Below, piece by piece: positions 734-3,332 of a stretch of 64,000 bases of DNA. Position numbers and translations under genes: made by a program. This DNA is from Candidatus Levyibacteriota bacterium (lineage in GTDB: Bacteria > Patescibacteriota > Microgenomatia > Levybacterales > UBA12049). Location: NCBI GenBank assembly GCA_016186625.1, contig JACPLG010000003.1:9645-73644 (forward strand), given 5' to 3'. Under the pieces are notes generated by a model. The model saw nothing but the letters and a program-made list of their open reading frames with translations. It was not told the DNA's origin and searched no databases. Positions within the stretch are counted from its first letter, which is position 1. The number at the start of each line of letters is the position of its first letter.

Positions 734-982
734 TTACCTTTCAAGAACAATTCCTATAATTTGTAAAACAAAACCCATAGCAAAAAGGCTGAAGCCAATA
801 ATCCCTAACTTTCTATTTTTAAGATGTTTCTTCTGATAATATTTACCGGTTTTCATATTCATTTTGAGTATCAGATCATCATCAACATATCGATTTATAT
901 TTAAATAAGGATACAGCATTATTAATGAAGCAATCGTATTAACTCCTAAACCCGAAACGATAAATAATGCCGAATAATTCAT
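734..982 (-). CDS. Small two-helix membrane protein (82 aa), last gene of the lexA-led minus-strand operon
   Basis: ORF track; two hydrophobic segments (res 5-24 and 59-80). Confidence 0.35.
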   Translation of the reverse strand: MNYSALFIVSGLGVNTIASLIMLYPYLNINRYVDDDLILKMNMKTGKYYQKKHLKNRKLGIIGFSLFAMGFVLQIIGIVLER

Positions 983-1021
983 ATCTCTCTTAATTTTTAA
1001 TTGACCAGTTAGTTCTCGTTT

Positions 1022-1408
1022 TTAAAGTCTTTTTTCTACCTGTTTCTTAATAAAATTCATTATCCCTTGTCTAATTGATAAATATATTCTTACCTCGCCT
1101 GGTAAATCGCTTTGCTTGACAAAAGAGAAAGAAGCTTCAAGAAAGTGTCGAAACTCAGTTAATCTCGGAAGAAAAAGATCCATATAGCAGTAATCATTTG
1201 TATCAACATAAAATGCGTTTGGAGGAATTTTAAAATCTTCTAAATTATCGTTTGTAAGCTCTTCAAGCTTGTTTACTAGCTTTGAATAATTATCTGCGAT
1301 TTCTCTCCTAACATTGTGGGGGTGCTCTTTTTGAAGATAAGATTCTATGCCAACAATTCTGCTATATATTTGCTTAATTCTATCTTTATCTATTTTTGAA
1401 TTTTTCAT
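1022..1408 (-). CDS. Hypothetical protein (128 aa)
   Basis: ORF track; no motif recognised; sits in an operon with nucleases. Confidence 0.45.
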   Translation of the reverse strand: MKNSKIDKDRIKQIYSRIVGIESYLQKEHPHNVRREIADNYSKLVNKLEELTNDNLEDFKIPPNAFYVDTNDYCYMDLFLPRLTEFRHFLEASFSFVKQSDLPGEVRIYLSIRQGIMNFIKKQVEKRL

Positions 1409-1468
1409 TTTGAATTTTAAATTCCTATCATTCCCCTAATTTTTCACCGGCCAATTAGCTTTCATATC

Positions 1469-2062
1469 TCATAAGAGTTGGTTCAAATCAATATTAAATT
1501 CATTTATATATTTGTTGTGCCTTGAGATCGCTTCTTTGGGAGACATTCCATCTAACTTTTTAATATACCCAATTACATCTTTATTATAAGCTTTCATAAT
1601 AAATGTACCGAACAATCTAATCTTTTCTTGTTCTTCCTTCGGAAAATTAATAGTTATGTTGTTTCTAAAATAGCAGTAAAGTTTATCTAAATCTTCAAGA
1701 TTATTAATAAACATTGCATCTCTCCAGCTCTCTGGGTACCGAGTTCTATATGCATTTTCGAGTTGTTGAAAGAAATTTTCTACAGATTGATGATAGGTCT
1801 TTTCTGGCAATTTTAACATTACAACTTTGAAGAGCTTAACCAATTTATGTTCATATTGTTTTAGATCCTTCTGTGTTAGATGTTTATTTTCTGTGATTTT
1901 TGCTTCAATAATCAAAAATAATTTAAAAAGTTTCTCAAAAGCTTCAGCAGCTTTTGACAAACCTGTATGGGTTAACCCGTTGATTAAAAGAATTCTTGCT
2001 GATAAATAATCCATATCGGCTATTCCAAGGTATTCAAGTCTTTTAATTAAACTTTCACTCAT
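1469..2062 (-). CDS. Hypothetical alpha-helical protein (197 aa), N-terminal helices weakly HEPN-like but no Rx4-6H motif found
   Basis: ORF track; ADMDYLSARILLINGL...SKAAEAFEKLFKLFL resembles the HEPN helical start; inference only. Confidence 0.45.
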   Translation of the reverse strand: MSESLIKRLEYLGIADMDYLSARILLINGLTHTGLSKAAEAFEKLFKLFLIIEAKITENKHLTQKDLKQYEHKLVKLFKVVMLKLPEKTYHQSVENFFQQLENAYRTRYPESWRDAMFINNLEDLDKLYCYFRNNITINFPKEEQEKIRLFGTFIMKAYNKDVIGYIKKLDGMSPKEAISRHNKYINEFNIDLNQLL

Positions 2063-2079
2063 AAAATTCTCCTAATTTT

Positions 2080-2367
2080 TCACTGGTCAGTTAGTTTTTG
2101 TTTATAACCTTTTTTTTGCATTTTTTCATTAATTGTGGTTTTTTCGCCTAGTGACCTAGCAATTATGACTTTTCGATTGTATGATATACCTTCTACATCT
2201 GCTATCAAATCTTTTCCATCAATTAGATTAGAAAGGGTGTCTTTTGCTCTTTGATATCCTCTTTCTCTTTTTTCAGGAGTATTAACATTAGCTAAGCGGA
2301 AGAATCTATTCCGCGAGTCTTGGAATGTATCTCCATCAATGACTTTTTTGACTCTTATTTTCATCAA
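2080..2367 (-). CDS. Thermonuclease-like (staphylococcal nuclease SNc fold) small protein
   Basis: KVIDGDTF...RFFRLANVNTPEKRERGYQRAKD...YNRKV matches the SNase signature (V.DGDT...RL.GID.PE...YGR). Confidence 0.6.
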   Translation of the reverse strand: MMKIRVKKVIDGDTFQDSRNRFFRLANVNTPEKRERGYQRAKDTLSNLIDGKDLIADVEGISYNRKVIIARSLGEKTTINEKMQKKGYKQKLTDQ

Positions 2368-2385
2368 TAATCACCTCCTTTATAT

Positions 2386-2676
2386 TTAATTTCTGGCTTT
2401 TATAGGACAGGTTAATCTACCTTCACTTCTTGTTGCATTGTTATACCATTGTAATGGTCTTAAATTTGATAAGTCATCTGTACCACCATCTGATTCTGGT
2501 TTAATGTGGTCAATTTCCCAACCAGTGTTATTTTGGCTTGATCTGCTCCCATACATATTTTTATCAATCAAAGCTCCGCAAGTATCCTTTCGTCTATAGC
2601 TGGGATCTATCCCTGGGATCAGCATACCTTTTTCCCAGACCTTTTGGATAACATCATCACTAAATTTTTGAAACAT
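2386..2676 (-). CDS. HNH endonuclease (small stand-alone)
   Basis: WEIDHIKPESDGGTDDLSNLRPLQWYNN carries the HNH catalytic motif (D-H...N...N). Confidence 0.75.
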   Translation of the reverse strand: MFQKFSDDVIQKVWEKGMLIPGIDPSYRRKDTCGALIDKNMYGSRSSQNNTGWEIDHIKPESDGGTDDLSNLRPLQWYNNATRSEGRLTCPIKARN

Positions 2677-2678
2677 AT

Positions 2679-3332
2679 TTATTTATCACCTCCTGTTAAA
2701 TTTCGTTGTGACTTAAAAACACCTATTGCAACACCATCTATATTAAAAGTCTTACCTTCATCGGTTTTATTAAAAACAAGATTGCCAAACTGCGGATTTA
2801 TGGATTCTAGTAAGTATTGGCCGGCAATTTCCTTAAATTTTTTGATAACAAAACCTTCCTGAGTTCTGGCGACAACAATTCTCCCGGAATCCGTAAAGTG
2901 TCCAGGCTCAAATACCACAAGATCTCCATCTTCTATTTTAGGTTCCATACTTTTACCAACTGCTTTTATAAGATATAAAGCGCTTTTTAAATTCCGGTTT
3001 ATAATACCAAGAGGGATTGGCACCATTTCAACGGTCGCCTCATCAACTATATGGTCAAGAGCTTGCCCACAGCTCGCGCGTCCAAGTAGTGGAAGGAGTG
3101 CAATTCCACCAGTTATTTCATCTGGTGAATTTACACGCACCACCTTACCGTATTGATCTCTTACTAAATAACCAAGCTCTTCAAGTCTTCGGATGTGGTA
3201 AAGGACTGCGTTTGGTGAATCAAGATCAAGTAGGTTGGCCAACTCCCTTAAAGACAAAGATTCGTTATGGCCTATCGAGGACCGTAGAATTTCTAATATT
3301 TTTATTTGTACATTTGATAATTTTTTGAACAT
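2679..3332 (-). CDS. lexA: LexA-type repressor (winged-helix DNA-binding domain plus S24 self-cleaving peptidase)
   Basis: N-terminus LSNVQIKILEILRSS...LRELANLLDL.SPNAVLYHIRRLEELGYL (LexA DNA-binding fold). Ala-Gly cleavage region (SCGQA). S24 Ser/Lys dyad context (GKSMEP ... DGDLVV ... VIKKF). Confidence 0.75.
   Translation of the reverse strand: MFKKLSNVQIKILEILRSSIGHNESLSLRELANLLDLDSPNAVLYHIRRLEELGYLVRDQYGKVVRVNSPDEITGGIALLPLLGRASCGQALDHIVDEATVEMVPIPLGIINRNLKSALYLIKAVGKSMEPKIEDGDLVVFEPGHFTDSGRIVVARTQEGFVIKKFKEIAGQYLLESINPQFGNLVFNKTDEGKTFNIDGVAIGVFKSQRNLTGGDK

What the first reader, a model, noticed from the sequence alone, without database searches (positions are those of the whole stretch)
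734..3332. LexA-led six-gene operon encoding an HNH nuclease, a thermonuclease-like protein and three unknowns
A bona fide LexA-type repressor is first in a tightly packed co-directional operon. Intergenic gaps are 2-60 bp. It is followed by an HNH endonuclease, a truncated SNase-fold nuclease, two uncharacterised helical proteins (one with a HEPN-like start) and a two-TM membrane peptide. Two different DNases and a membrane peptide under a self-cleaving repressor read as a damage- or phage-inducible DNA-degradation, toxin or abortive-infection module rather than a classical SOS repair regulon. The operon sits next to an RM gene, consistent with a defence island. This combination is not a named system as far as I know.
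Basis: partly seen in the sequence, partly recalled or inferred. Interest (0 to 1): 0.7.

Follow-up and report, generated by a model that had tools for sequence, protein, structure and literature searches.

The report
LexA operon with swappable nucleases
In an uncultured Levybacteria (CPR) chromosome, the DNA-damage repressor gene lexA heads an operon whose conserved partners are a small interchangeable nuclease and a miniature staphylococcal-type nuclease, while the last three genes are strain-specific add-ons, all sitting in a hotspot for anti-phage genes.

Summary
The six co-directional minus-strand ORFs exist as described, with gaps of 2-60 bp. They are LexA (217 aa), HNH (96 aa), mini-SNase (94 aa), a HEPN-fold protein (197 aa), a four-helix orphan (128 aa) and a two-TM peptide (82 aa).

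They are not one conserved six-gene system. Related metagenomic loci keep only a core. That core is lexA, then a tightly coupled small nuclease whose fold changes between lineages (HNH here, GIY-YIG, Hjc-like or mini-HNH elsewhere), then, in the closest relatives, the mini-SNase at 68-71% identity.

The three distal genes are strain-specific cargo:
- The HEPN-fold gene occurs alone in 16 other loci.
- The 128-aa protein has 8 relatives among 1.84 billion representatives.
- All three share a private 27-nt leader element.

In all six lexA lineages examined, a different RM or defence cluster abuts lexA.

Best reading: a self-cleaving LexA controls a near-leaderless polycistronic mRNA, so DNA damage or infection induces small cytoplasmic nucleases, and accessory defence-type genes hitch-hike on the 3' end. 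No LexA operator was found and no nuclease activity is shown. This is a new variant of a known kind, of moderate interest.

The parts
3341..3369 (-). Putative lexA promoter: -35 TTGCAT (3369-3364), a 17-nt spacer, and an extended -10 TGgTAATAT (3349-3341). Only 8 nt separate it from the ATG, so the mRNA would be near-leaderless.
   Evidence: Read from the sequence. lexA orthologues show the same geometry, TTGAC(A/T)-17-TAGA(C/A)T ending 9-12 nt before the ATG. The consensus scan did not pick it up because the -35 matches only 3 of 6 positions. Inferred.
2679..3332 (-). LexA-type repressor, 217 aa: a winged-helix DNA-binding domain plus an S24 self-cleaving peptidase domain. Cys88-Gly89 occupies the scissile-site slot; Ser128 and Lys164 form the catalytic dyad.
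   Evidence: Pfam. PDB LexA hits over the full length. Invariant C88, G89, S128 and K164 in 21 relatives. NCBIfam lexA scores 90.7 bits, below the cut-off of 110.95.
2386..2676 (-). Small HNH nuclease, 96 aa. It starts 2 nt after the lexA stop and has a strong AGGAGGTGA Shine-Dalgarno sequence. This gene slot holds a different nuclease fold in other lineages.
   Evidence: Pfam HNH 5.1e-7. Relatives at 45-52% identity occur on Aeromonas and cyanobacterial plasmids. The slot holds GIY-YIG, Hjc-like or mini-HNH genes in L021-L025.
2080..2364 (-). Mini-SNase, 94 aa, with an OB-fold thermonuclease core and no C-terminal helix. It is the conserved partner of lexA in the closest relatives.
   Evidence: Pfam SNase 23.3 bits. 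PHROG_452 endonuclease 7.4e-10. 71 clusters at 57-76% identity and 86-94 aa. Invariant DGDTF, FRL and the R of SYNRK; the D40 slot is Asn here. A family profile hits only thermonuclease in the PDB.
2068..2094 (-). Copy 1 of a 27-nt leader element, CTAAYTGNNCNNTNAAAAATTARGRGA. It overlaps the 3' end of the mini-SNase gene and provides the ribosome-binding site of the 197-aa gene.
   Evidence: The element occurs only three times in the 64 kb and in no other locus.
1469..2062 (-). HEPN-fold protein, 197 aa (cargo). The usual Rx4-6H motif reads R133-x5-N139 in all family members.
1432..1458 (-). Copy 2 of the 27-nt leader element, before the 128-aa gene.
1022..1408 (-). Four-helix orphan protein, 128 aa (cargo).
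986..1012 (-). Copy 3 of the 27-nt leader element, before the 82-aa gene.
734..982 (-). Two-TM membrane peptide, 82 aa (cargo).
   Evidence: Hydropathy. No hit in any family library.
580..611 (-). 12-bp hairpin with an ACTTGAGA loop, the likely end of the transcription unit. It is the first of three hairpins that share the loop.
   Evidence: Terminator-like hit. Hairpin scan. The Logan contigs break inside it.
3469..6699 (-). Neighbouring type IIG RM gene (Eco57I/MmeI-like). In this assembly it is split by a nonsense SNP at 3916-3918.
   Evidence: Pfam and PADLOC. An intact 1076-aa ORF is present in L001. SNP located.

Best explanation
This is the chromosomal lexA locus of a Candidatus Levybacteria genome. 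It has two layers.

Layer 1 is a conserved core. lexA is followed by a translationally coupled small nuclease and then a mini-SNase. The nuclease fold in the middle slot has been exchanged during evolution: it is HNH here.

Layer 2 is a strain-specific tail of three unrelated accessory genes: a HEPN-fold protein, a four-helix orphan and a 2-TM peptide. Each was joined through the same 27-nt leader element.

Proposed working:
1. LexA represses its own extended -10, near-leaderless promoter.
2. DNA damage or phage-generated ssDNA activates RecA.
3. LexA cuts itself at Cys88-Gly89 using Ser128/Lys164.
4. The whole polycistronic mRNA is then made.
5. The cytoplasmic HNH and mini-SNase cut and degrade DNA, and the cargo genes become damage-inducible by position.

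I judge the physiological role most likely to be damage- or infection-triggered DNA degradation, of the kind done by the SOS-induced BapE endonuclease. The locus acts as the regulated end of a defence island.

Shown: gene order, domain identities, conservation of the cleavage residues, the split between core and cargo, and the defence-gene neighbourhood.
Inferred: autoregulation, co-transcription, nuclease activity and the biological role.
For: LexA identity and intact self-cleavage residues.

The gene after lexA:
- The gap to lexA is 2 bp here, and the genes overlap in L021-L023.
- That gene is a nuclease in five lineages but with different folds: HNH; GIY-YIG (7e-5); Hjc-like (0.0058, weak); mini-HNH (0.021, weak).

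The mini-SNase:
- It is conserved at 68-71% identity right after that slot in lexA orthologues of 71-73% identity.
- In L028-L030 it lies divergently next to a LexA-S24-methyltransferase fusion.

The cargo differs in every orthologue:
- The HEPN-fold gene is solitary in 16 other loci.
- P128 is nearly unique.
- The three cargo genes alone carry the 27-nt leader, whereas the core genes have AGGAGGTGA.
- Cargo GC is 0.285-0.305, against 0.38 for lexA and a window mean of 0.373.

A different RM or defence cluster abuts lexA in all 6 lineages. No intergenic terminator-like site lies within the operon; the first lies 123 nt after the last gene.

Precedents:
- SOS-induced BapE endonuclease (Bos et al. 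2012, cited in PMC12700426).
- Repressors that co-localise with varied defence islands (BrxR, PMC9122601).
Against: - No LexA operator of any known type, and no dyad shared among six lexA promoters, was found. LexA control therefore rests on gene order alone.
- The lexA match is below NCBIfam's equivalog cut-off.
- The mini-SNase family is unusually well conserved. It also occurs away from lexA among housekeeping genes (L027) and next to polA (L028). That fits a repair or housekeeping factor better than a toxin.
- Its Ca2+-ligand slot (SNase D40) varies between D, N and Y and is Asn here, so its activity is uncertain.
- Two of the nuclease assignments in relatives are below Pfam cut-offs.
- Only nine informative related loci could be examined, and three of them are close relatives of one another.
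- PADLOC has no model for any of the downstream proteins.
Confidence: 0.5

Rival explanations
1. Ordinary SOS repair operon. lexA is co-transcribed with small nucleases that process damaged DNA or recycle nucleotides, in an organism that cannot make nucleotides de novo. The defence-gene neighbourhood is incidental.
For: The mini-SNase family is strongly conserved, 57-76% identity over 71 clusters. It also occurs among housekeeping genes without lexA (L027) and next to polA (L028). The rest of the window is core chromosome. The nucleases lack signal peptides or TM segments.
Against: Replacement of the gene after lexA by unrelated nuclease folds (HNH, GIY-YIG, Hjc-like) is typical of effector modules rather than repair pathways. 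A different RM or defence cluster is adjacent in all 6 lexA lineages. The HNH family also occurs on small plasmids of unrelated phyla.
Confidence: 0.2
2. One reading: all six genes form one dedicated, previously unnamed toxin or abortive-infection system.
For: Tight co-directional packing. Identical in three other assemblies. The combination of two nucleases, a HEPN fold and a membrane peptide resembles defence effectors.
Against: The identical assemblies are the same strain (2 SNPs in 6.5 kb). The HEPN-fold gene is found 16 times without the other genes. lexA orthologues have other cargo and a different second gene. P128 has almost no relatives. There are no PADLOC hits.
Confidence: 0.07
3. 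The small HNH and GIY-YIG genes are selfish free-standing homing-endonuclease-like insertions between two conserved genes (lexA and the mini-SNase). They have no role in the operon's function.
For: HNH alternates with GIY-YIG at one intergenic slot between conserved flanks, the pattern seen for free-standing endonucleases in phage genomes (own knowledge). The HNH family is spread across phyla and plasmids.
Against: At 96-114 aa these proteins lack the DNA-binding domains of homing endonucleases. They are translationally coupled to lexA. A small nuclease also follows lexA where no mini-SNase is present (L024, L025).
Confidence: 0.1
4. Remnant of a prophage or other integrated element whose CI-like S24 repressor has been mistaken for LexA.
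For: S24 repressors are common in phages; PHROG_4 and PHROG_6201 hit the C-terminal domain. The region has low GC.
Against: There is no integrase, structural or replication gene in the first 8 kb. The N-terminal domain is the LexA winged helix, with full-length alignment to LexA. No LexA217-, H197- or P128-type gene is found in IMG/VR.
Confidence: 0.04

Closest known systems
Classical LexA/SOS autoregulated operons (e.g. lexA-dinB, lexA-sulA arrangements)
   Same: A LexA-type wHTH plus S24 repressor is the first gene and is co-transcribed with damage-response genes. The self-cleavage residues are conserved.
   Different: The partners are small nucleases, not a polymerase or a division inhibitor. 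The cleavage-site slot holds Cys-Gly, as in UmuD (own knowledge), not Ala-Gly. No recognisable SOS box was found. The score is below the lexA equivalog cut-off.
BapE, the SOS-induced DNA endonuclease of Caulobacter (Bos et al. 2012, cited in PMC12700426)
   Same: A cytoplasmic DNA endonuclease placed under LexA control and produced after DNA damage. This is the model for what HNH96/SN94 may do.
   Different: bapE is a separate regulon member, not in the lexA operon. Here there are two nucleases, one of which has been swapped between folds.
Colicin E7/E9-type SOS operons (LexA-controlled HNH DNase, immunity and lysis genes)
   Same: An HNH DNase plus a small membrane protein sit behind a LexA-controlled promoter. 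There is a weak, non-significant alignment of HNH96 to the ColE7 DNase domain (E 0.3).
   Different: There are no receptor-binding or translocation domains and no recognisable immunity gene. TM82 has no lipobox. lexA itself is in the operon.
Defence-island regulators (BrxR/WYL family, PMC9122601)
   Same: A repressor gene recurs next to many different defence systems. An Aeromonas plasmid homologue of HNH96 lies divergently next to a WYL-domain regulator.
   Different: The sensor here is a RecA-dependent self-cleaving LexA domain, not a ligand-binding WYL domain. Regulation of the neighbouring RM genes is not shown.
HEPN toxins (HEPN-MNT, AbiV, Csm6 HEPN domains)
   Different: There is no MNT partner. 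The Rx4-6H catalytic motif reads Rx5N in all 25 members. An extra ~55-aa C-terminal region is present. It is a solitary gene in varied contexts.
Staphylococcal nuclease / thermonuclease family (PF00565)
   Same: SN94 keeps the DGDT, FRL and (D/N)(T/A)PE motifs and the R of YNRK, corresponding to SNase D19/D21, R35, D40-E43 and R87.
   Different: The protein is 86-94 aa instead of ~149. It lacks the last helix and Y113/Y115, has no signal peptide, and the D40 slot is not conserved.

Membership tests
LexA repressor (TIGR00498 / PF01726+PF00717) | N-terminal LexA winged-helix DNA-binding domain | tested here: met
   PF01726 scores 30.9 bits against a cut-off of 23.7. The alignment to E. coli LexA starts at residue 4.
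LexA repressor (TIGR00498 / PF01726+PF00717) | C-terminal S24 peptidase domain with a Ser-Lys dyad and an Ala/Cys-Gly scissile site | tested here: met
   PF00717 8.8e-19. C88-G89, S128 and K164 are invariant in 21 relatives and align to E. coli A84-G85, S119 and K156.
LexA repressor (TIGR00498 / PF01726+PF00717) | Score above NCBIfam's equivalog cut-off | tested here: not met
   90.7 bits against a cut-off of 110.95, although the profile is covered over its full length (2-201 of 203).
LexA repressor (TIGR00498 / PF01726+PF00717) | Operator (SOS box) in its own promoter; RecA-stimulated cleavage | tested here: inconclusive
   No known box type and no shared dyad was found in six promoters. Cleavage cannot be tested with these tools.
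HNH endonuclease (PF01844) | beta-beta-alpha-metal core with the D-H...N...N/H motif | tested here: met
   30.2 bits against a cut-off of 21.4. The motif reads EIDH57...N71L...N79N80 in the sequence.
Staphylococcal nuclease (PF00565) | Pfam gathering score and the catalytic residues D21, R35, D40, E43, R87 | tested here: inconclusive
   23.3 bits against a cut-off of 21. The equivalents of D21, R35 and R87 are invariant and the E43 equivalent is E or D. The D40 equivalent is Asn here and D/N/Y across the family. The C-terminal third is absent.
HEPN superfamily | Four-helix up-down HEPN fold | tested here: met
HEPN superfamily | Rx4-6H RNase motif | tested here: not met
   R133-N-N-I-T-I-N139, with Asn invariant in place of His in 25 sequences. 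Pfam HEPN scores 16.8 bits, below the cut-off of 22.
HEPN-MNT toxin-antitoxin | Adjacent minimal nucleotidyltransferase partner | tested here: not met
   No NTase gene lies next to H197 in the window or in the 16 other loci.
Known anti-phage defence systems (PADLOC-DB 2.0) | A match of any of the five downstream proteins to a system model | tested here: not met
   No hit at E<=0.1 for any of the five.
Colicin-type SOS bacteriocin operon | Toxin with receptor and translocation domains, an immunity gene, and a lipoprotein lysis gene | tested here: not met
   HNH96 is 96 aa with the HNH core only. The N-terminus of TM82 has no L-x-x-C lipobox.

The most novel reading that the evidence does not exclude
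In Levybacteria-like CPR bacteria the LexA self-cleavage switch has been recruited as the damage or infection sensor of the defence arsenal. Three observations would then be faces of one CPR-wide coupling between RecA/LexA sensing and restriction or abortive defence:
- a lexA, interchangeable small-nuclease effector, mini-SNase cassette;
- the constant juxtaposition of lexA with ever-changing RM, Shedu or HEPN genes;
- methyltransferases of RM systems fused to a complete LexA domain (L021, L028-L030).
Probability: 0.2. Interest if true: 0.75.

Novelty: new variant of a known kind. Interest (0 to 1): 0.48.

Why it matters
CPR/Patescibacteria have tiny genomes and few characterised regulatory circuits. 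If their LexA routinely drives small nucleases and sits at the entry of defence islands, the SOS switch would double as an infection alarm in a huge, uncultured part of the bacterial tree.

It would also give three things to work with:
- A compact experimental handle: a 2.7-kb operon with proteins of 82-217 aa.
- A defined family of 86-94 aa mini-SNases.
- A HEPN-fold family lacking the canonical catalytic His.

If instead the nucleases are repair or salvage factors, the locus is simply an unusual SOS operon next to a recombination hotspot.

Tried and rejected
- **LexA boxes.** I searched upstream of lexA in the window and five relatives for known box types: CGAAC-N4-GTTCG, CTGT-N8-ACAG, GTTC-N7-GTTC and the cyanobacterial type. 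I also searched for any shared dyad or direct repeat. Nothing was found.
- **RNA structure in the 27-nt leader elements.** z-scores were about +1.
- **Rfam at a permissive threshold on 1-3600.** Only a chance miRNA hit.
- **Phage origin.** No LexA217-, H197- or P128-type genes in IMG/VR. For the mini-SNase, only distant phage thermonucleases.
- **P128 as a partner or relative of the HEPN protein.** No profile similarity. It is never adjacent to H197 homologues. The 128-aa and 82-aa genes near H197 in L020 are coincidental in length.
- **P128 fold search.** Only generic helical bundles.
- **Literature.** The paper on the Patescibacteria SOS network (Sanchez-Osuna et al. 2017, PMID 28618189) is not held, so its LexA motif could not be used. 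Searches for a LexA-thermonuclease link found nothing, and searches for LexA-methyltransferase fusions returned nothing relevant.
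Full report
**Observation**

The minus strand of window 734-3332 carries six co-directional ORFs, exactly as reported:
- LexA, 217 aa, 2679-3332.
- An HNH protein, 96 aa, 2386-2676.
- An SNase-like protein, 94 aa from the ATG at 2364, ending at 2080.
- A 197-aa protein, 1469-2062.
- A 128-aa protein, 1022-1408.
- An 82-aa protein, 734-982.

The gaps between them are 2, 21, 17, 60 and 39 bp. 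Pfam gives the following:
- LexA: Peptidase_S24 at 8.8e-19 and LexA_DNA_bind at 2.3e-7.
- HNH: 5.1e-7.
- SNase: 9.4e-5, just above the gathering score and covering only the first two-thirds of the profile.
- 197-aa protein: a sub-threshold HEPN hit at 0.0076.
- The last two proteins: nothing.

The 82-aa protein has two hydrophobic segments.

The source is a Candidatus Levybacteria MAG; the 197-aa protein carries locus tag HYW63_00280 on a contig of 171,713 bp. The same 6.5 kb, with only two SNPs, occurs in Logan assemblies of three other sequencing runs. The arrangement is therefore real, but those copies are the same strain and say nothing about conservation.

**Genomic setting**

Most of the 64-kb window is core chromosome: AlaRS, FtsK, PNPase, ClpC-like, GlmS, DnaK, RNase J, IF-2 and NusA. 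The first ~8 kb is different.
- Its GC content is 0.327, against 0.36-0.40 in the other 8-kb blocks of the window.
- Besides the operon it holds an Eco57I/MmeI-type (type IIG) RM gene, a DUF3800 gene and a DUF3800-IX RNA motif.
- Within the operon, GC falls from lexA (0.381) and HNH (0.364) through the mini-SNase (0.326) to the last three genes (0.285-0.305).

**The repressor**

LexA217 aligns over its whole length with E. coli LexA (7b5g, E 2.5e-9). Across 21 relatives at 49-77% identity, four positions are invariant: Cys88-Gly89 in the slot of the Ala84-Gly85 scissile bond, Ser128 and Lys164. A Cys-Gly site is what UmuD uses (own knowledge), so self-cleavage is plausible.

It scores below NCBIfam's lexA equivalog cut-off, 90.7 against 110.95 bits. 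I therefore call it LexA-type rather than a certified orthologue.

Its promoter is best read as an extended -10 (TGgTAATAT, 3349-3341) with a weak -35 (TTGCAT), ending 8 nt before the ATG. Orthologues have TTGAC(A/T)-17-TAGA(C/A)T in the same position, so lexA mRNA is probably near-leaderless in this clade.

I found no operator. None of the known LexA box types is present, and no dyad or direct repeat is shared among six promoters. The one paper on the Patescibacteria SOS network is not in the held library.

**What is conserved**

I looked up the contigs of lexA relatives.

Three orthologues at 71-73% identity (L021, L022, L023) share this layout:
- lexA comes first.
- It is followed by an overlapping 108-114-aa gene that is not HNH but GIY-YIG (Pfam 7e-5).
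- Next comes the mini-SNase, at 68-71% identity to the window copy.
- After that the content differs in every case:
  - L021: 219-, 230- (NERD-like) and 144-aa genes.
  - L022: a 181-aa membrane protein and a SMODS-like fragment, followed by nitroreductase and M16 peptidase genes.
  - L023: a Shedu SduA_C gene.

Two more distant lexA relatives (53% identity) lack the mini-SNase but again have a small nuclease-like gene after lexA. Both assignments are weak:
- L024: an Hjc-like PD-(D/E)xK protein, Pfam 0.0058.
- L025: a 72-aa mini-HNH, Pfam 0.021.

So lexA is not alone in any lineage examined. However, the second gene is a slot filled by unrelated nuclease folds, and only the mini-SNase is an orthologous partner, and only among the nearer relatives.

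**The mini-SNase**

This is a family in its own right, not a truncation.
- It comprises 71 clusters of 86-94 aa at 57-76% identity, annotated from Levybacteria and Kerfeldbacteria.
- Invariant positions are DGDTF, FRL, P-x-K, the Arg of SYNRK, and GEK. These match SNase D19/D21, R35, P42 and R87.
- The D40 Ca2+-ligand slot is D, N or Y, and Asn in the window copy.
- The last helix, which carries Y113/Y115 in SNase, is missing.
- There is no signal peptide or hydrophobic segment.

In a Kerfeldbacteria genome it sits among unrelated genes with no lexA nearby (L027). In three other assemblies it lies divergently next to a 595-597-aa protein that fuses a complete, canonical LexA to an N6/N4 methyltransferase, with a Tsp45I-type restriction gene and polA nearby (L028-L030). 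The LexA part of that fusion has the DNA-binding domain, an AAGEP cleavage site, GNSM and a Lys. The link between a LexA domain and the mini-SNase therefore recurs in a second architecture, but it is not obligatory.

**The HNH protein**

HNH96 has the D-H...N...N core. It has 45-52% identical relatives on small Aeromonas plasmids and on cyanobacterial plasmids, plus one in a gut phage contig. In the Aeromonas plasmid it is divergent from a WYL-domain regulator. That family includes DNA-damage and defence-island regulators (PMC9122601). This is suggestive, but it is a single case.

**The three distal genes are cargo**

Its 48 clusters were traced to 16 other loci at 43-81% identity. None of these has any of the other five genes nearby. 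Its neighbours there include:
- fusA.
- An rve transposase.
- A type I RM with ThsB-TIR.
- An N6/N4 methyltransferase with MutH.
- A Schlafen AlbA_2 protein.
- DUF2971.
- Plain housekeeping genes.

It is a wandering solitary gene.

*The 128-aa protein.* It has only 8 relatives at E <= 1e-3 among 1.84 billion representatives. It is a generic four-helix bundle and is unrelated to the HEPN protein.

*The 82-aa peptide.* It has no detectable family.

All three, and only these three in the 64 kb and in all 58 loci fetched, are preceded by the same 27-nt element, CTAAYTGNNCNNTNAAAAATTARGRGA (2068-2094, 1432-1458, 986-1012). The first copy supplies the 6-aa C-terminal extension that makes the window mini-SNase 94 rather than 88-89 aa. 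The element has no significant RNA structure. HNH and the mini-SNase instead have AGGAGGTGA Shine-Dalgarno sequences. Sequence composition, translation signals and comparative data thus agree on a split between a three-gene core and a three-gene tail.

**Defence neighbourhood**

In all six lexA lineages a different RM or defence cluster abuts lexA:
- Window: type IIG RM.
- L021: BsaWI-type REase plus a LexA-methyltransferase fusion.
- L022: MerR, C5 MTase, HaeII REase and Vsr.
- L023: Eco57I-type MTase with an S subunit.
- L024: type I HsdR plus AAA_13.
- L025: SNF2 helicase, N6 MTase and DUF3800.

Because the systems differ, this looks like repeated turnover at a hotspot rather than inherited synteny. 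The sample is small, and the window, L021, L022 and L023 are close relatives of one another.

**Mechanism**

The best-supported reading is an SOS-type, autoregulated, near-leaderless polycistronic unit. RecA-stimulated LexA self-cleavage would induce a small HNH nuclease and a mini-SNase, and the three accessory genes would gain the same control by position.

For the physiological role I favour damage- or infection-triggered DNA degradation, as with the SOS-induced BapE endonuclease of Caulobacter (Bos et al. 2012, cited in PMC12700426). My reasons are that the nuclease slot shows non-orthologous replacement, which is typical of effector modules, and that the locus is embedded among defence genes.

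The main rival is a repair or salvage role. It is supported by the strong conservation of the mini-SNase and by its occurrence next to polA and among housekeeping genes.

Three further rivals are less likely, for the reasons given under the rival explanations: a fixed six-gene system, selfish homing-type endonucleases, and a prophage remnant.

What is shown: gene content, domain and fold identities, conserved cleavage residues, the core/cargo split and the neighbourhood pattern. What is inferred: LexA binding, co-transcription, nuclease activity and the biological role.

**Comparison, novelty and score**

The locus works like an SOS operon and resembles BapE-type damage-induced nucleases and defence-island regulators such as BrxR. 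It does not meet the definitions of a colicin operon, a HEPN-MNT pair or any PADLOC system.

I rate it a new variant of a known kind. The variant consists of lexA coupled to an interchangeable small nuclease and a mini-SNase, at a defence hotspot in CPR bacteria.

Interest is moderate, 0.48. The recurring LexA-nuclease and LexA-RM associations, including the LexA-methyltransferase fusions, would interest SOS and phage-defence specialists. No function is demonstrated, and the originally proposed six-gene system does not hold.

Noticed in passing
window 272-611, minus strand: Three perfect hairpins share the loop (A/T)CTTGAGA but have unrelated stems of 12, 9 and 14 bp, at 580-611, 527-552 and 272-307. 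They lie in the 480-bp gap between the operon and an ArsR-like ORF that runs off the window start. They occur nowhere else in the 64 kb and have no Rfam match, and the Logan contigs all break inside the first one. A conserved loop with varying stems suggests a recognised RNA or ssDNA hairpin rather than plain terminators.
   Followed up: partly
L021 3784-5670 (-); L028 4081-5868 (-); L029; L030: Proteins of 595-628 aa fuse a complete LexA (DNA-binding domain, A-G cleavage site, Ser/Lys dyad) to an N6/N4 DNA methyltransferase. They sit next to BsaWI- or Tsp45I-type restriction genes and are divergent from lexA or the mini-SNase. This suggests RM modification or expression wired to RecA-dependent self-cleavage. 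I found no description of this in the literature searches.
   Followed up: partly
window 3916-3918 (type IIG RM gene 3469-6699, minus): A single SNP (T in the window, A in Logan contig L001) creates a stop codon. It splits the 1076-aa type IIG RM protein into 927-aa and 121-aa ORFs, so the RM enzyme is truncated in this strain or assembly.
   Followed up: yes
window 7169-7240 (+) and 7240-7863 (-): A DUF3800-IX RNA motif (RF02968, 60.3 bits) abuts the 3' end of a DUF3800 gene on the opposite strand. A DUF3800 gene is also part of the cluster next to lexA in L025/L026.
   Followed up: no
window 2068-2094, 1432-1458, 986-1012 (minus): A 27-nt element, CTAAYTGNNCNNTNAAAAATTARGRGA, precedes each of the three cargo genes and nothing else. 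It may be a cassette junction or a shared translational or regulatory site. It has no stable RNA fold.
   Followed up: partly
L031 (Aeromonas veronii plasmid p71506-2) 2842-4294: A 48% identical homologue of the HNH96 protein lies divergently next to a WYL-domain regulator on a small plasmid. This is a second pairing of this HNH family with a possible DNA-damage or defence regulator.
   Followed up: no
window 3332 and L021-L024 lexA starts: In lexA genes of this clade the -10 element ends only 8-12 nt before the start codon and there is no Shine-Dalgarno sequence, so the mRNAs are probably leaderless.
   Followed up: partly
L021 5790-5900 and L023 4180-4290: Upstream of lexA, both loci share a conserved ~110-nt stretch that reads like the 3' end of an RM methyltransferase or specificity gene. 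It looks like a remnant of an earlier RM system at the same site, consistent with turnover at a hotspot.
   Followed up: no
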